Counted from the stretch's first letter, positions 445 to 5,729 are shown. The stretch is DNA of 64,000 bases from an uncultured Bacteroidota bacterium (GCA_903851365.1 CAINOB010000123.1:12573-76572), one strand, 5' to 3'. Notes: generated from the sequence alone by a model not told the origin. Program-made: numbers and translations.

Positions 445-1521
445 TTATTTTTTAGTGTCATCGTTGTTATAAGAGCATCTTGCCCCGGTGGTTAACGCGG
501 CCCATGTGGTACCATTAGTTACCTCTGGAATGGCAACCCCGTCGCTATAATGCTGGGTCTTTAAATTAGAGGCCATCCACACCTGATTGCCTATTTTGAC
601 GGTCGGATATTTGTTTCCGTCATAATCTGTTACAGTGCATGGATCAGTGGAGTTATCTTTGATGAGACGGATTGGAATACCAGTCGCTTGGGTGGAAACA
701 TGGTTCGAATATAGAATTTCAGTATCGTTTGTGATATACGTTATATACCTACTCGTTCCTGACGCTGTAGTTGTCCAAGTCATTCCGTATGAACCCCCAG
801 AAATATATACTCCATCAGAGCCCCTTATTCCAACGGCAAACATTGTGAAACCACTTGAGTTATTTGTAGATTGATTATACCCTGGACTACCGGCAGTAAC
901 CCCAGAATAAGTCCATGTAGTTGTAGCTGCTATGGAATAAGCAACATCATTTCCGCTTCCACCATAGCCAAATCCATTATTTGTAAGATATGTATCTAAA
1001 GTAGTCCATTCAGTCAGTGTTGGAACATGCCAACCTGAGGGCGCGATTTCACTTTCTTTTGTGCCGTCCCCATCCGTGTCACCATTAACCGCATACCAAT
1101 TATACAAATACCCTGGCGAAGCTTCTCCAAAACAATTGTAAATGGAAGCAATAGCACCGCTGGTCATTTGCACGACCTTATAACGATCACTTGAACAGTA
1201 AGATAAATAATATCCGTCAGGTATTTTATCACAATTGGTGGCTCCGATGCCCAGATAAACATTTTGACCAACCGCAATAGATGAATATTCATAATACCAG
1301 CCGCCTAATTCGTCGCAGTAGCCATCTCTCCAACAGACATACCCGGCAAAAGCATCCTGCCAGGACCCAGCGATATAGGTATCCATCGAATAATCAATAA
1401 ATTGCCCATTTGATAGGCCGGTTGGTCTGCATGCGGTACCGGAATGAGACCAGAAAAAATTCCCCTGGCTATAAGCATTTAAGGATAAAATCAATCCAAG
1501 CATTAACAATATTCGTTTCAT
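445..1521 (-). CDS. Secreted protein with circularly permuted Fib_succ_major (FISUMP, CLec-like) domain
   Basis: Likely start MKRILL at 1521 (ATGA overlap). Signal peptide ends AYS-Q. Motifs GYLYNWYAV, PSGWHVPT..EW, IRLIKD, then TVTDYDGNKYPTVKIGNQVWMASNL. Confidence 0.85.
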   Translation of the reverse strand: MKRILLMLGLILSLNAYSQGNFFWSHSGTACRPTGLSNGQFIDYSMDTYIAGSWQDAFAGYVCWRDGYCDELGGWYYEYSSIAVGQNVYLGIGATNCDKIPDGYYLSYCSSDRYKVVQMTSGAIASIYNCFGEASPGYLYNWYAVNGDTDGDGTKESEIAPSGWHVPTLTEWTTLDTYLTNNGFGYGGSGNDVAYSIAATTTWTYSGVTAGSPGYNQSTNNSSGFTMFAVGIRGSDGVYISGGSYGMTWTTTASGTSRYITYITNDTEILYSNHVSTQATGIPIRLIKDNSTDPCTVTDYDGNKYPTVKIGNQVWMASNLKTQHYSDGVAIPEVTNGTTWAALTTGARCSYNNDDTKK

Positions 1522-4500
1522 AACATTCCTTTCGTTCCATTCCAATGTAAATAGGTCCCATCATACCACCAGCTAAAAACGTCTCTTTTACTGCCTCCTG
1601 AGCAGGTGACCAGGTTAGCCGATGTATAGATATTTGGGTTGATATCGTTGGTGTAACCGCTAAATGATAAAGTGTAGGCTGTTGATGGGTTATAAATGGC
1701 AATATTCCCAGTCATACCGGCCACCAGGTTCGATAGAGTAATCGTTGTATTTCCCGATATTGTTAATCTAGCGTGAATACCATTGTTGACATTTAAAGAT
1801 GGTGTAGTGCCTGTTAACTCCTGCACATTTTGATTAGCAGGTGCAAAATCGCTGATCTTAGCATAGGCGGCAGAACCCAGCCTTTGGTTTAGCTCGCTGA
1901 TCAGGTTATCCCAATCAAAAGTCCGTAACGGGACCCCTTCAATCTGGTATGTTTTACCAATCGGTATATTTACCCCTGTGGCATTGGTGTTGAACTGGGG
2001 GTGAGAATCCATATCCATGAAGGTGTGATAATTGGAACTCGTATAATAAAGAGCATCATTCCAGTAGATATAACTATCAGCGATTCCAGAGGTGCCAAAG
2101 GCCAGTTTTTTCGTATCGTTAAAAATGACATCACCGGTAAAAGTGCCGCCGGTACCCTGAACAAGTGAACTTAAGTCAGCATAGGCAGCAGATCCTAAAA
2201 GCAATTGGAGATTAAAAACCGGATCAGTGGCCAGCCAGGCGGTGTGGATAGGATCAGCCTCTGTAAACGATGTTAAATAGGCCACGTTTGTCCCCGCTGT
2301 CGCTAATCCCTTAGCATTGATTGTGATATTATTATAAGTTCCAATATTGCTGTTTACGGTTGCTAATGTTAAAGCAGTTGCCCCTGAAGCATCTCCTGAA
2401 TGGGTGGCATTGGTAATTAACCCAGAATAAAGTGAGTTGGTTGCGTTCTGATCGTGAAACCGTGAATCGTTACCCGCTGCAAAGGTTCCCGACCCTGTAC
2501 CAAACGATCCTACTGTCAAAACCCCACTTGCCCCGGTAATAACTGGTAGTCCCGTTGTCGATCCTATTGCCCCCGCATTCGTAATATTCCCATGGGCATG
2601 AGAAATTGCCGCAAATGAACCGGAAAAATCATGGGAGTGATCTCCATAGGCGGCGGTTGAATGAGAAGTGCCAAATCCGGGAAAAGTAACCAATCCGGAA
2701 TAAAGAGAATTAACCGCATTGTCTCCGGAATTTGTATTGGAGGTGTTGTCTAGTTTTGTTTTGTCAGCACCGGTAAGAAAACCGTCTGCTCCTCCAGCAA
2801 TAGCATTCGCGTGGCTATGATTATAAGTGGAGAAAACATCAATATTTGTGTAAGCGGAAGAACCTAAATCCTTTGCCGATACAGGATCTGTTTCGCTATA
2901 TGACAACTTGACCGTTGAACTGTCTACCACGGAAACTTCAACTCCTCTTTCACCATATAATTTAACATCTGCATTAATCTCATTGCTCCCGTGAAGCCTG
3001 ATCTTAGCAGTATCACCGGAATTAACAGCGGATAGATCGTAGAGCATTTGTTCGTTGATAGTCGAACCAGAAGCGGAGTCCTTGACATTGTAGGTAAGAT
3101 AAACATCGATATAGGAATCTCCCGAATAGGAACCGGTAGCAGAGCCTGCAACGTAATAAATCCCATTATTAATACCATATTCCCCTGATTCTAAATCACT
3201 ATAACCATAGGTTGTCCATTTTCTTGTTTCGGGAACCATTGTATAACTAGATCCACCGAAAGGAATGATCCATTGATTGGTACTACTGACGTTCTTGCCT
3301 TTAAATATCGTATGTGGTCCATAAGCAGTAGTAAAAGGTGCATAATTGATATAATCGTAACTATTTGTGGTTGCAGCATTGTATAGGTGCATTACCGTAA
3401 AAGCAGAGATTATGTCAATGAATCTACTTGGACCGGGAGAAGGCAATAATTGAAATGGAGTTGTATGTAAAACATCCAAACTTGCTTTTGGAATAGTTAT
3501 TTTTTTAAAGAATCCATAATTTGTTCCCCCGCCTGAACTATCCGGTGCCGTAGAAGCAATCTGAATAACATGATCTGATACCCTATATACGGAAATATTA
3601 TTCCCATTCATAAAAAACATGCTATCCTTGGTTCCATTGTCATTCAGAAGTTCCATCCAGACACCATCATCATTATATGTTGCTGATAAATTAGTTTTTC
3701 GAACAAATTTCAATGTGTCCAAGTCATTCTTTGTAGCAATCTTCGCTATTGTATCATGCCAATGCAATAGGTTGGCGGAGTCCTGCTCGTAATTCAAAAT
3801 ACGACCAGACAGGTTGTTTATTGAATCTCGAAGGTCCTGTAAATCTGATTGGTGTAGAAAATAAATTGTATCCTTTTTGAGCAGGAAGTAAACCAGAGTG
3901 TCTTTTTTAGCAAAGTAACCAGTGTCCTTGCCTTGAAATAAATGAGAATTATCTGCAATTCCATGAACGGGTAAGAATTGACTTACGTCTGCCATAGCCA
4001 TCGACCCAAATGTATTTGACGTAGCGTAATTATTTAAACTTTTTTGCACCTGGGTTGGCGTTGTAATACGTGTAATGGTATCTCGCCAAAGCAAGGCATG
4101 GGCCTCAACATACTCTTTTATTGCATGCTGTGTCACGCCATAAACATCTTCGTTATTCCAGTCGACAGAATCCACTCCGGCCAAAGAAGAGTCCCGCAAA
4201 TAGTATGACGGATTTCTTAGGAACGCTATAATTCTCCACTTTGCTGAGTCGTGTTCATCGGGGTAATCACCAGTGGAAGTATGGTTGGCCTGACAAAAGT
4301 AATGCACGACCATGTTTCCGTAATCGTATTTAGTAATATCACCAAAAACATAATTATTAGAAGTTGCCCAAGTAGTTGCATTATTTAAGTCAAACACAGA
4401 AGAGAGATCCATATAATCTGTTCCTATTACGAGAACCGATAATTTCTTGGTCCCGGCCGTTGATCGAAGTATCTGATAGGTTTTATTGCCGTAGGCATTT

Positions 4501-5305: not shown

Positions 5306-5306
5306 T

Positions 5307-5729
5307 TTAATTGTGAATTATTAGTACATCGTAAATCATGGTATCCAGGTAAAGACTGATAGTATCGGTTCCTAATTTGGCCCAACGTGTATTTTCAATC
5401 ATGGACCCGTTATAGAAAACCTTTGTCGTAGTGGTTAAGGGGAAAGAGATTTTAATATTATTCTCCCCGTTGACTGTTATTTCCTTTTTGAAAATCTTTG
5501 CTACATCTGGCATGGCCCCAAGATTCCAATCTCTTCCGGTATCGTTTTTGAAGTGGAGACTATCCTGAAAGGAATATACACCCACAAAGTCCGAAGCCGG
5601 GGTCCCAATCGGTACAGTAGAGTTCTTGATCTTCATAAAGGCACTCAGATTGACAGAGGAAAAATTCCCGATCTGCGCCATGGCTGAGGTTCCGACCAAA
5701 AGAAATAGTCCAATGATTATCTTTCTCAT
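5307..5729 (-). CDS. Signal-peptide protein, fibre module
   Basis: MRKIIIGLFLLVGTSAMA-Q; tightly coupled in the operon. Confidence 0.7.
   Translation of the reverse strand: MRKIIIGLFLLVGTSAMAQIGNFSSVNLSAFMKIKNSTVPIGTPASDFVGVYSFQDSLHFKNDTGRDWNLGAMPDVAKIFKKEITVNGENNIKISFPLTTTTKVFYNGSMIENTRWAKLGTDTISLYLDTMIYDVLIIHN

What the first reader, a model, noticed from the sequence alone, without database searches (positions are those of the whole stretch)
1518..5729. Exported fibre proteins are packed with Bacteroidota O-glycosylation sequons D-S/T-[AILVMT]
Seen by hand count: the 1039-aa protein has 13 strict sequons (DST, DSA, DSV, DTI, DTL, DTI, DSI, DSA, DTI, DTL, DSM, DSA, DTA), 11 of them in the first ~340 aa. 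The 221-aa protein has DST, DST, DSL and the 140-aa protein has DSL, DTI, DTM. My rough chance expectation is a few per 1000 aa. Known: the phylum-wide O-glycosylation system modifies this motif only on extracytoplasmic proteins. Inference: the phage routes fibres through Sec so the host glycosylates them (glycan cloak or host mimicry), possibly edited by the phage's own sugar cluster.
Basis: partly seen in the sequence, partly recalled or inferred. Interest (0 to 1): 0.85.

Follow-up and report, generated by a model that had tools for sequence, protein, structure and literature searches.

The report
Exported, sequon-rich phage tail fibres
A prophage in a freshwater Bacteroidota bacterium gives all its tail-fibre proteins secretion signals and packs the fibre shafts with the host's O-glycosylation motif, which suggests, without proving it, that this tailed phage has its fibres exported and sugar-coated by the host.

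Summary
The counts are correct: 13, 3 and 3 D-S/T-[AILVMT] sequons. The strong signal is in the first 340 residues of the 1039-aa protein: 11 sequons against 1.9 expected, reached by 0 of 20,000 shuffles. Only 5 of 3822 host ORFs hold 11 or more sequons in a 320-residue window. The two small proteins are weak alone (P = 0.09 and 0.018).

Five of six consecutive late-operon genes begin with Bacteroidota type-I signal peptides ending in small-residue|Gln (the Q-rule). The same layout recurs at the tail-fibre position of four unrelated viral contigs. Pooled, ten fibre proteins hold 123 sequons against 38 expected, while the six signal-bearing proteins downstream hold 1 against 9.8.

The C-terminal two thirds of the 1039-aa protein match ordinary signal-less phage tail fibres, which are sequon-poor.

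Sec export followed by host O-glycosylation is the best reading (about 0.6). Nothing is shown biochemically, and virion incorporation is open. Phage glycosyltransferases accompany 3 of 5 such cassettes, so they are not obligatory.

I found nothing in print linking phage fibres to this glycosylation system. Q-rule signal peptides on phage genes of unknown function were reported in 2023.

The parts
5307..5729 (-). 140-aa protein with a signal peptide ending A|Q. It has 3 sequons against 0.6 expected. Its C-terminal 66 residues are 41% identical to the C-terminus of the 534-aa signal-bearing protein of viral contig L004.
4640..5305 (-). 221-aa protein with a signal peptide ending G|Q. It carries the conserved mature N-terminus (QVTPSKVVRV...LPAGTQIY) and the widespread fibre motif GADKTKLD. 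It has 3 sequons against 1.1 expected. It is 68% identical over its full length to a 221-aa signal-bearing protein of L004, with the three sequon positions conserved.
4581..4637 (-). Signal peptide of the 1039-aa protein (residues 1-19, MKRYLIGLLLFVSLPIYG|Q). The upstream gene ends 2 nt before it, so the start codon is not in doubt.
3603..4580 (-). Sequon-rich N-terminal third of the 1039-aa protein (residues 20-345), with 11 sequons. It holds a conserved mature N-terminal domain shared with the 221-aa protein, a domain at about residues 78-187 that recurs in other signal-bearing proteins, and a stretch at about 186-340 with a sequon every 10-15 residues. All 10 other proteins that match this region or the equivalent sequon-rich regions of two L004 proteins are signal-bearing (9 match this region itself).
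1521..2849 (-). Fibre-repeat region and about 100-aa C-terminal domain of the 1039-aa protein (residues about 597-1039). It is shared with many signal-less phage tail fibres and is sequon-poor.
445..1521 (-). 358-aa protein with a signal peptide ending S|Q, a mature N-terminus QGNFFWSHSG, and a Fib_succ_major (FISUMP) domain. It has 0 sequons against 1.66 expected. Partners with the same N-terminal motif follow the big fibre gene in L101 and L102.
123..422 (-). 99-aa ORF without a signal peptide, lying between the 358-aa gene and the DGR target, which it overlaps by 4 nt. No family match. A role as a DGR accessory protein is only a guess.
1..126 (-). 5' end (the signal peptide, ending G|Q) of a 413-aa protein that continues beyond the window (contig C123 11457-12698). 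Its C-terminus holds the variable repeat of a diversity-generating retroelement. It has 0 sequons against 1.1 expected.
5726..6337 (-). 203-aa protein without a signal peptide. It is the last signal-less gene of the capsid-side operon and overlaps the first signal-bearing gene by 4 nt, which ties the cassette to the late structural operon.
13416..19148 (+). Phage sugar cluster: a GFO/IDH-type oxidoreductase, a methyltransferase, a GT1/GT4 and a GT2 glycosyltransferase, a fragment resembling an NDP-sugar dehydrogenase, and a weak Stealth-like hit. All hits are generic, none of the proteins has a membrane segment, and any link to the fibres is inference.

Best explanation
This is the tail-fibre cassette at the end of the late structural operon of a prophage in a freshwater Bacteroidota. 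Unusually for a tailed phage, five of six consecutive genes begin with a Bacteroidota type-I signal peptide whose cleavage would expose Gln: the 140-, 221-, 1039- and 358-aa proteins and a 413-aa DGR target.

The most likely mechanism runs as follows. The proteins are made late and are exported by Sec. Signal peptidase I cuts them, leaving an N-terminal Gln that the host's glutaminyl cyclase can convert to pyroglutamate. In the periplasm the host's general O-glycosylation system then glycosylates the D-S/T-[AILVMT] sites, which are concentrated in the proximal shaft modules. The distal lectin-like and DGR-diversified proteins are kept free of sequons, so their binding surfaces stay bare. None of the proteins has a lipobox or a T9SS sorting domain, so they should stay in the periplasm until lysis. 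At lysis they could dock onto particles assembled in the cytoplasm.

A plausible benefit is that fibres made this way resist proteases and denaturation. Both pyroglutamate and O-glycans have been proposed to stabilise extracytoplasmic proteins of this phylum.

Shown here: the sequence features, the statistics, their recurrence in other phages and the homology to tail fibres. Inferred: export, cleavage, glycosylation, periplasmic residence and attachment to virions.
For: 1. Signal peptides.
- The four window proteins have an n-region, an h-region and a small residue followed by Q. They look like the host's own T9SS cargo, for example MKRFTLVFLLMFSVILTYG|QV. Of 40 cargo ORFs examined, 26 have [AGSC]Q at positions 15-30, against 9.3% of 2668 non-signal ORFs.
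- 46 of 48 signal-bearing homologues and cassette proteins show [AGSC]|Q. Sixteen share a conserved mature N-terminus that starts exactly at that Q.
- Gene junctions of -4 to +2 nt fix the start codons.

2. Host. The host has 5 SusD matches and 103 T9SS C-terminal-domain matches, 3 of them below the family cut-off. In the host, sequon O/E is 1.10 without a signal, 1.15 for SPI and 1.56 for SPII proteins. Of the 50 most sequon-enriched ORFs, 31 have a signal, against a 30% genome share (P = 3e-6).

3. Enrichment.

4. Recurrence. Viral contigs L004, L014, L101 and L102 have a tape-measure gene and distal tail genes followed by signal+Q proteins. Their sequon counts against expectation are 14 vs 4.0, 4 vs 0.9, 39 vs 9.9, 13 vs 3.1, 4 vs 1.7, 19 vs 6.6 and 11 vs 4.7. 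Lysis genes follow where the contig continues. Pooled over 10 fibre proteins the count is 123 against 38.2. The 6 signal-bearing proteins downstream hold 1 against 9.8 (P = 6e-4).

5. Diversity of contexts. The 210 sequon contexts in 38 signal-bearing homologues are all unique. The third position is I 50, L 49, T 49, V 37, A 22, close to the preference order given in the review PMC12871550 (passages).

6. Fibre identity. HMMER found 1733 hits, mostly to residues about 600-1039. All 8 signal-less homologues tested fall in PHROG tail or tail-fibre families.

7. What the literature says. The review states that the motif is modified only on non-cytoplasmic proteins, that sites are nearly fully occupied, and that an engineered motif is sufficient for glycosylation. 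If these proteins are exported, glycosylation should therefore follow.
Against: - No experiment bears on export, cleavage, glycans or virion content. I had no trained signal-peptide predictor. The signal calls rest on my own heuristic, which missed 8 of 40 T9SS cargo ORFs.
- Within modules shared with signal-less fibres, sequons are equally scarce in both groups. For the C-terminal domain O/E is 0.31 against 0.29; for the fibre repeats it is 0.08 against 0.25. The excess lies only in modules exclusive to signal-bearing proteins, so a structural origin of the motif cannot be excluded.
- In L004's 1392-aa protein many sequons ride on tandem protein repeats, and the homologues are not independent, so the pooled P values are overstated.
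- The two small window proteins are not significant on their own.
- I defined the 'tip' group by position, but only after seeing the zero counts.
- The Bacteroides-type LFG arrangement (metG, wzx, glycosyltransferase array) was not found next to the host's metG. Only sugar-nucleotide genes and one GT28-like gene lie there.
- I know of no tailed phage that assembles fibres from the periplasm.
- The related Bacteroides phage BF1-TP2 has tail proteins without signal peptides.
Confidence: 0.6

Rival explanations
1. The proteins are exported and probably glycosylated, but they are not virion parts. They would act in the envelope of the lysogen or the infected cell, for example as receptor-masking or superinfection-exclusion factors, as decoys that keep progeny off cell debris, or as adhesins that benefit the lysogen. 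They would have been built from recycled fibre modules.
For: - Virions of tailed phages are assembled in the cytoplasm, so a signal peptide is what one expects of a non-virion protein.
- Signal-bearing accessory genes inside tail-fibre regions are classical examples: lambda lom, T5 llp and cor (recalled, not checked here).
- In Bacteroides, 70% (201 of 287) of DGR variable proteins with pilin-like folds are prophage-encoded, and pilus-tip variable proteins carry signal sequences (bioRxiv 10.1101/2024.11.15.621889, passages).
- Here a DGR diversifies a signal-bearing protein.
- The P. gingivalis phage paper reads its Q-rule genes as potential modifiers of the outer membrane (PMC10367356, passages).
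Against: - The genes are translationally coupled to the capsid-side late operon, with no intergenic space for their own promoter or terminator. Note that the sigma-70 scan is not valid for Bacteroidota promoters.
- In four viral contigs the cassette sits exactly where fibres belong, between the tape-measure and distal tail genes and the lysis genes. The ORFs between the distal tail genes and the lysis genes are all signal-bearing there; I did not search those contigs for other fibre genes.
- The 221- and 1039-aa proteins share a conserved mature N-terminal domain, as fibres that dock at one site do.
- Without a lipobox or a T9SS domain they cannot reach the cell surface by a known route.
Confidence: 0.25
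2. The D-S/T-hydrophobic excess is a structural signature of particular fibre-shaft modules, such as helix N-caps or repeat motifs, and has nothing to do with glycosylation. The hydrophobic N-termini are either not used for export or are irrelevant.
For: - The excess is confined to modules found only in these proteins. Shared modules show no gain in signal-bearing proteins.
- In L004's 1392-aa protein an approximately 44-residue unit with 3-4 sequons is tandemly repeated.
- In the window protein, sequons between residues 246 and 307 recur every 9-15 residues and often follow a basic residue.
- The capsid proteins of this phage group also have hydrophobic N-termini that are probably not export signals (PMC10367356).
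Against: - The 210 sequon contexts are unique, with no shared flanking consensus.
- In one aligned domain the sequons shift position between homologues while their number is kept.
- The share of D[ST]x with a permitted third residue is 68% in signal-bearing and 29% in signal-less homologues. It is 85% (11 of 13) in the window protein's N-terminal third. In the host proteome it is 46-57%.
- Signal-bearing partner proteins are depleted of sequons (1 against 9.8), which is hard to explain if sequons are neutral.
- 46 of 48 N-termini obey the Q-rule.
- According to the review, any exported protein with the motif is glycosylated.
Confidence: 0.12
3. The phage's own cytoplasmic glycosyltransferase cluster glycosylates virion proteins directly, as in mycobacteriophages, and the host's periplasmic system plays no part.
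For: - The prophage carries GT1 and GT2 genes with sugar-modifying enzymes, all without membrane segments.
- GT2 genes occur in G029 (borderline score) and G030, against 0 of 51 control phage records.
- Virion glycosylation by phage enzymes is known for mycobacteriophages (Freeman et al. 2023, seen only as cited and summarised in PMC12619734).
Against: - 0 of 2 further cassette-bearing viral records have a GT1 or GT2 gene. One of them is a complete 41-kb genome with terminal repeats.
- The glycosyltransferases of the different phages are not homologous to each other.
- This reading does not explain the signal peptides or the use of exactly the host's motif.
- The controls are mostly phages of other phyla, so the association may only reflect the host phylum.
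Confidence: 0.05

Closest known systems
General protein O-glycosylation of Bacteroidota (LFG-type system; review PMC12871550, passages and sections 8 and 10 read)
   Same: The motif is the same, D-S/T-A/L/V/I/M/T. The requirement for a non-cytoplasmic location is the same. The third-position preference matches. The host belongs to the phylum.
   Different: All described substrates are cellular proteins, and the word 'phage' does not occur in the review. Here the candidate substrates are phage tail-fibre homologues. Their sequon densities are three- to fourfold above those of the host's own exported proteins. The LFG gene order was not found next to the host's metG.
Mycobacteriophage virion glycosylation (Freeman et al. 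2023; seen only as cited in PMC12619734)
   Same: Glycans on structural proteins of a tailed phage, with glycosyltransferase genes in the phage genome.
   Different: In mycobacteriophages, phage enzymes act in the cytoplasm on the C-termini of the capsid and tail-tube subunits. Here the route would be Sec export and the host's periplasmic system acting on fibres, and phage glycosyltransferases are dispensable in at least one complete relative.
Q-rule signal peptides on Porphyromonas gingivalis phage genes (PMC10367356, passages)
   Same: Phages of Bacteroidota encoding proteins whose signal peptides obey the Q-rule. Capsid proteins with hydrophobic N-termini are also noted there.
   Different: The five genes in that paper are of unknown function. 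No link to tail fibres or to glycosylation is made ('glycosylat' occurs 0 times).
Prophage-associated, exported DGR variable proteins and type V pilus tip adhesins of Bacteroides (bioRxiv 10.1101/2024.11.15.621889, passages)
   Same: A DGR that diversifies a signal-bearing binding protein encoded beside prophage genes.
   Different: Those proteins are lipoproteins with a lipobox and pilin folds. Here the signal is type I with the Q-rule, no pilin family was detected, and the target sits in a fibre cassette.
Signal-bearing accessory genes in tail-fibre regions (lambda lom, T5 llp, cor; recalled, not checked)
   Same: Exported proteins encoded among the fibre genes.
   Different: Those are small outer-membrane proteins or lipoproteins unrelated to fibres. 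Here the exported proteins are themselves fibre homologues of up to 1039 aa.

Membership tests
Substrate of the Bacteroidota general O-glycosylation system | The producer is a member of the Bacteroidota | tested here: met
   5 SusD_RagB matches and 103 Por_Secre_tail matches in the host assembly. Q-rule N-termini on host T9SS cargo.
Substrate of the Bacteroidota general O-glycosylation system | The protein is extracytoplasmic (signal peptide or membrane topology) | tested here: met
   Prediction from sequence only. The n-region, h-region and [AGS]|Q pattern is present in all four window proteins and in 46 of 48 relatives. No SignalP run and no experiment.
Substrate of the Bacteroidota general O-glycosylation system | D-S/T-[A/I/L/V/M/T] motif present | tested here: met
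   13, 3 and 3 sites. The N-terminal third of the 1039-aa protein holds 11 against 1.9 expected.
Substrate of the Bacteroidota general O-glycosylation system | Glycan attached at the Ser/Thr | not testable with these tools
   Needs glycoproteomics.
Substrate of the Bacteroidota general O-glycosylation system | The host carries the glycosylation machinery (LFG: metG, wzx, glycosyltransferase array) | tested here: inconclusive
   metG lies at C3:11775-13808. Near it are DegT, hexapeptide transferase, epimerase, dehydratase and GT28-like genes, but no wzx or glycosyltransferase array among the 8 ORFs scanned. Indirect support comes from sequon O/E of 1.56 in lipoproteins and from 31 of the top 50 sequon-dense ORFs being signal-bearing.
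Phage tail fibre (virion component) | Homology to known tail-fibre families | tested here: met
   Indirect. The protein itself matched 0 PHROG, Pfam or NCBIfam families. Its best HMMER homologues (E down to 1e-129) all fall in PHROG tail or tail-fibre families, 8 of 8 tested. The ADKTKLD motif is shared with fibres in 75 further ORFs of viral contigs.
Phage tail fibre (virion component) | Encoded in the late structural operon at the fibre position | tested here: met
   It lies downstream of the capsid genes with overlapping junctions. In L004, L014, L101 and L102 the cassette lies directly after the tape-measure and distal tail genes.
Phage tail fibre (virion component) | Physically present in virions | not testable with these tools
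   No proteomics. Neither the 1039-aa nor the 221-aa protein has a relative among 50,697 isolated-phage records.
T9SS cargo | C-terminal sorting domain (type A or type B) | tested here: not met
   No Por_Secre_tail or NCBIfam sorting-domain hit in any cassette protein. The host has 103 such domains elsewhere.
Diversity-generating retroelement (neighbour of the cassette) | Reverse transcriptase plus a template/variable repeat pair differing at template adenines | tested here: met
   RVT_1 hit at C123:10211-11176. The 125-nt repeats are 78% identical, and all but one difference in the core lie at A in the template.

The most novel reading that the evidence does not exclude
A set of tailed phages of Bacteroidota assemble in two compartments. 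Heads and tails are built in the cytoplasm. The fibres are exported by Sec, trimmed to a pyroglutamate N-terminus and coated with the host's own O-glycan in the periplasm. The fibres join the particle only when the envelope breaks down at lysis. The phage would thereby borrow the host's extracytoplasmic protein-hardening machinery, and would carry the host's species-specific glycan on its shafts while keeping its DGR-diversified binding tips bare.
Probability: 0.3. Interest if true: 0.9.

Novelty: new variant of a known kind. Interest (0 to 1): 0.72.

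Why it matters
If true, this would be the first case I know of in which a tailed phage routes virion fibres through Sec. It would also be the first in which a phage uses a host general protein-glycosylation system rather than its own enzymes.

It would make several questions testable. What is the Bacteroidota O-glycan for: stability, or self-recognition? How do fibres meet particles across a membrane? Do glycans on fibres affect host range, protease resistance or recognition by grazers and immune systems?

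It also has a practical side for annotation. Signal peptides are currently used as an argument against a phage-structural role, for example for DGR targets (PMC6199706). For Bacteroidota phages that rule may mislead.

Tried and rejected
Structure. AlphaFold2 on the 221-aa protein (3-sequence alignment) and on residues 1-345 of the 1039-aa protein (7-sequence alignment) gave mean pLDDT of 35.0 and 36.4. These models are unusable, so I ran no fold search. A PDB sequence search found nothing (best E = 0.24).

Family searches. Pfam at E up to 5 on four segments of the 1039-aa protein, on the DGR target and on the 140-aa protein gave nothing meaningful. My impression that residues about 95-140 resemble a CBM5/12 carbohydrate-binding module is recall only. 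Pfam does not support it. One Atlas lead at 0.82 lists such a family in 36% of a viral cluster, which is below the level that counts. Both Atlas searches gave only viral tail-like leads under 0.9.

Relatives.
- No relative of the 1039-aa or 221-aa protein among 50,697 isolated-phage records.
- None for the N-terminal 400 residues in the other 28 genomes of the host's family.
- Only the protein itself in the word-indexed protein search.
- None in genome contigs with the 221-aa alignment.
- None in viral contigs with the whole 1039-aa protein.
- The cluster look-up gave no informative names.

Expression. No RNA holder is listed. The DNA occurs in freshwater and lake metagenome runs.

Promoter and terminator scan. 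Counts did not exceed those of shuffles, and the sigma-70 model does not fit this phylum.

L005/G031. This viral contig has signal-bearing proteins at the fibre position whose signals mostly lack the Q. They hold 12 sequons against 14.1 expected. I first counted it among the 'SP-fibre' records with GT2, then removed it from the sequon-rich set.

Literature. Searches found no paper on signal-bearing or host-glycosylated tail fibres of Bacteroidota phages. This covers only the held library. Supplements were closed, so I could not see where the five Q-rule genes of PMC10367356 lie.

Unused tools.

Full report
**Observation**

A regex count reproduces the hand count exactly: 13, 3 and 3 D-[ST]-[AILVMT] sites, with 11 of the 13 in residues 30-338.

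Against 20,000 composition-preserving shuffles:
- The 1039-aa protein has 13 against 5.6 (P = 0.0025).
- The 221-aa protein has 3 against 1.1 (P = 0.09).
- The 140-aa protein has 3 against 0.6 (P = 0.018).
- Residues 1-340 of the large protein have 11 against 1.9, reached by 0 of 20,000 shuffles.
- Residues 341-1039 have 2 against 3.5.

Because that split is post hoc, I ranked the protein in its own genome. The window is C123:12573-76572 of a 5.2-Mb, 130-contig assembly. Of 3822 ORFs of at least 100 aa, 5 have 11 or more sequons in a 320-residue window, and this protein is one of them. The other four are unrelated host proteins, two of which my heuristic calls signal-bearing. By whole-protein Poisson P the three proteins rank 52nd, 356th and 138th, so only the large protein is remarkable on its own.

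Control motifs are not enriched in residues 1-340: E[ST]x 0, N[ST]x 0, the reversed motif 0, and D[ST][other] 2 against 3.0. Eleven of 13 D[ST]x carry a permitted third residue (P = 0.0011), and 13 of 30 Asp are followed by Ser or Thr against 4.9 expected. The 49 other ORFs of the phage region hold 30 sequons against 36.9. There is no DNA tandem repeat under the rich region.

**What the genes are**

The region is a prophage. It has:
- an SU10-type major capsid protein (7999-9357),
- a P22-type portal (21842-23830),
- a large terminase (10714-12708),
- an endolysin (21075-21623),
- a 3139-aa polyvalent protein.

The capsid protein is 26-27% identical to those of three Bacteroides phages.

On the minus strand the capsid-side operon runs into the cassette without gaps. 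The signal-less 203-aa gene overlaps the 140-aa gene by 4 nt. Then follow gaps of 1 and 2 nt, a 4-nt overlap into a 358-aa gene (445-1521), and a 22-nt gap to a 99-aa ORF. That ORF overlaps by 4 nt a 413-aa gene whose first 42 codons are window 1-126.

Five of these six cassette genes start with a basic n-region, a hydrophobic core and a small residue followed by Gln. The 99-aa ORF does not.

The 358-aa protein has a Fib_succ_major (FISUMP) domain. The 413-aa protein is the target of a diversity-generating retroelement. A reverse transcriptase lies at C123:10211-11176. The template repeat is at 11280-11404 and the variable repeat at 11471-11595. Their differences lie almost only at template adenines.

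**Fibre identity**

The 1039-aa protein matched no PHROG, Pfam or NCBIfam family. A full HMMER scan, however, found 1733 relatives, nearly all matching residues about 600-1039. All eight signal-less relatives that I tested belong to PHROG tail or tail-fibre families.

The 221- and 1039-aa proteins share the motif GADKTKLD. In 80 viral contigs found through that motif, 76 ORFs carry it and 75 of those have no signal peptide. The modules are therefore ordinary fibre modules. The signal peptide is the oddity.

**Are the N-termini signal peptides?**

I had no trained predictor. My heuristic% of host ORFs signal-bearing. Host T9SS cargo, which must cross the inner membrane by Sec, have N-termini almost interchangeable with those of the phage proteins. 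Of 40 cargo ORFs examined, 26 show [AGSC]Q at positions 15-30, against 9.3% of 2668 non-signal ORFs. The heuristic missed 8 of the 40.

Of 48 signal-bearing relatives and cassette proteins, 46 show [AGSC]|Q. Sixteen share a conserved mature N-terminus, Q-x-x-P-...-R-V-P-...-F-G-x-N-L-P-x-G-T-x-I, that starts at that Gln.

The Q-rule is described in PMC5837995 and PMC10653852 (search listing and abstract starts only).

The host is a Bacteroidota: it has 5 SusD matches and 103 T9SS-domain matches. None of the cassette proteins has a T9SS domain or a lipobox. The predicted destination is therefore the periplasm.

**Link between signal and sequons**

Among the 149 best HMMER relatives:
- The 38 with a signal have 210 sequons against 141.8 expected (O/E 1.48).
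- The 111 without a signal have 250 against 434 (O/E 0.58). Mann-Whitney P = 2e-5.
- The share of D[ST]x with a permitted third residue is 68% against 29%.

The host proteome gives 46% (no signal), 50% (SPI) and 57% (SPII).

All 10 proteins other than the queries themselves that match the sequon-rich N-terminal regions used as queries (one of the window protein, two of L004 proteins) are signal-bearing.

The 210 sequon contexts are all different, and the third position follows I, L, T, V, A. That is close to the order in the review PMC12871550.

In one aligned domain the sequons sit at different nearby columns in different relatives.

**A result against the selection argument**

Inside the modules shared with signal-less fibres, sequons are scarce in both groups. 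O/E for the C-terminal domain is 0.31 against 0.29. For the fibre repeats it is 0.08 against 0.25. The excess is entirely outside those modules, at 1.60 against 0.34. There is therefore no sign that a shared module gained sequons once it was exported. A structural origin of the motif in the signal-specific modules remains possible.

**Recurrence in other phages**

Four IMG/VR contigs carry the same arrangement at the canonical fibre position, after the tape-measure and distal tail genes.

| Contig | Signal+Q proteins (sequons observed vs expected) | What follows |
|---|---|---|
| L004 (complete, 54.9 kb) | 534 aa (14 vs 4.0); 221 aa (4 vs 0.9; 68% identical to the window's 221-aa protein); 1392 aa (39 vs 9.9); 585 aa (0 vs 2.8) | lysis genes |
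| L014 | 518 aa (13 vs 3.1); 213 aa (4 vs 1.7) | locus ends |
| L101 | 1484 aa (19 vs 6.6); 334 aa partner starting Q-G-F-F-W-S-H (0 vs 0.95); 456 aa (1 vs 1.8) | lysis genes |
| L102 (complete, 41 kb) | 727 aa (11 vs 4.7); 279 aa partner starting Q-G-N-F-F-W-S-H (0 vs 1.4) | lysis genes |

Pooled, the ten fibre proteins hold 123 sequons against 38.2 expected. The six signal-bearing proteins that follow the largest fibre gene hold 1 against 9.8 (P = 6e-4).

Three caveats apply. The proteins are related. The 1392-aa protein contains tandem protein repeats that carry 3-4 sequons each. I fixed the positional grouping after seeing the zeros.

Depletion in exported binding proteins alongside enrichment in exported shafts is what one expects if sequons are used.

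**The phage sugar cluster**

Window 13416-19148 encodes generic sugar enzymes and GT1 and GT2 transferases, all without membrane segments.

GT2 genes occur in the viruses behind L004 (borderline score), L014 and L005. They occur in 0 of 50 control viral records with signal-less fibres and not in Bacteroides phage BF1-TP2. In a prospective test, the viruses behind L101 and L102 had neither GT1 nor GT2.

Among the five genomes with sequon-rich cassettes the tally is 3 of 5, against 0 of 51 (Fisher P = 4e-4). The controls are mostly from other phyla, and the transferases of the different phages are not homologous. Phage enzymes are therefore not required, and any editing role is unproven.

**Host machinery**

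The review states the following:
- The motif is modified only on non-cytoplasmic proteins.
- Sites are almost fully occupied.
- An engineered motif is sufficient for glycosylation.
- The transferase is still unknown.
- The outer-glycan locus in Bacteroides starts with metG and wzx.
- Stability and self-recognition are proposed functions of the glycan.

In this host, metG is followed by sugar-nucleotide genes and a GT28-like gene but no wzx or transferase array among the 8 ORFs scanned. This test is inconclusive.

Indirect support comes from the host's own statistics. Sequon O/E rises from 1.10 (no signal) to 1.56 (lipoproteins). Of the 50 most enriched ORFs, 31 are signal-bearing, against a 30% share (P = 3e-6).

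**Mechanism and rivals**

The best reading, at 0.6, has five steps: late expression, Sec export, cleavage before Gln, O-glycosylation of the shaft modules in the periplasm, and residence there until lysis.

Whether the proteins then dock onto particles is open; I put that at about 0.3 overall. The rival that they act in the envelope without joining virions has real support: classical signal-bearing accessory genes in fibre regions (recalled) and the many prophage-encoded exported DGR targets in Bacteroides. Against it stand the operon coupling, the canonical fibre position, and the shared mature N-terminal domain.

A purely structural origin of the motif without export is less likely (0.12). 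Glycosylation by phage enzymes alone is unlikely (0.05).

**Comparison with what is known**

- PMC10367356 reports five P. gingivalis phage genes of unknown function with Q-rule signal peptides, and capsid proteins with signal-like N-termini. It does not mention glycosylation.
- Mycobacteriophage virion glycosylation uses phage enzymes on capsid and tail-tube C-termini (seen as cited in PMC12619734).
- PMC6199706 uses the absence of signal peptides as support for the phage origin of DGR targets.
- Five searches of the held library found no paper on exported or host-glycosylated tail fibres of Bacteroidota phages.

**Limits**

- Everything rests on sequence.
- Both structure predictions failed.
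- No RNA data exist for the locus.
- Supplements were closed.

Noticed in passing
L013:10211-12698 (contig C123; the target gene's 5' end is window 1-126): A diversity-generating retroelement lies just downstream of the cassette. It has a reverse transcriptase, a 125-nt template repeat and a variable repeat, with differences almost only at template adenines. The variable repeat sits in the C-terminus of a 413-aa protein with a Q-rule signal peptide. One paper treats the absence of signal peptides as typical of phage DGR targets (PMC6199706).
   Followed up: partly
window 7999-9357; L002:11758-13194: The SU10-type major capsid protein starts with a hydrophobic, signal-like segment (MRNFRILSLLTTLVVVIIGILGL...), and so does its relative in Bacteroides phage BF1-TP2. 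PMC10367356 notes the same for P. gingivalis phages and suggests that the prohead protease removes it.
   Followed up: no
window 445-1521; L013:11457-12698; L004:14848-16605; L101:13641-16022; L102:12177-13016: The signal-bearing proteins that follow the big fibre gene are almost free of sequons: 1 against 9.8 expected over six proteins. Three of them (those at window 445-1521, L101:13641-14645 and L102:12177-13016) begin their mature form with Q-G-x-F-F-W-S-H.
   Followed up: partly
window 4520-4580 and 5186-5245, and relatives: A conserved mature N-terminus begins exactly at the predicted cleavage-site Gln: Q-V/T-x-P-...-R-V-P/A-...-F/L-G-x-N-L-P-x-G-T-x-I. It occurs in 16 of 48 signal-bearing relatives. 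It could be a docking element that needs a free N-terminus.
   Followed up: partly
window 20199-20864: A 221-aa protein with a RyR domain and a Tad2-like (Thoeris anti-defence 2) domain, which makes it a candidate counter-defence gene.
   Followed up: no
window 23830-33249: A 3139-aa polyvalent protein with LPD1 and LPD5 domains lies directly upstream of the portal gene. It holds only 2 sequons (0.6 per 1000 aa).
   Followed up: no
L005:8279-14644: A 136-kb viral contig has six or seven consecutive signal-bearing proteins at the fibre position. Their signals mostly lack the Q, and they show no sequon excess (12 against 14.1). They are followed by sugar- and methyl-transferase-like genes. This suggests that exported fibre-position proteins also occur outside the Q-rule group.
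   Followed up: partly
L013:8109-9909: A 190-aa lipoprotein (lipobox LFMTAC) and two small membrane proteins lie downstream of the DGR. They are candidates for spanin or holin, or for an exclusion lipoprotein.
   Followed up: no
window 4218-4352 (residues about 95-140 of the 1039-aa protein): The pattern W-x-T-x(3)-Y-x(2)-G-D-x(10-14)-Y-x-C-x(3)-H-x-S recurs three times in P0024 and once each in P0040 and P0003. It reminded me of CBM5/12 carbohydrate-binding modules. Pfam gave no hit, so this is recall only.
   Followed up: partly
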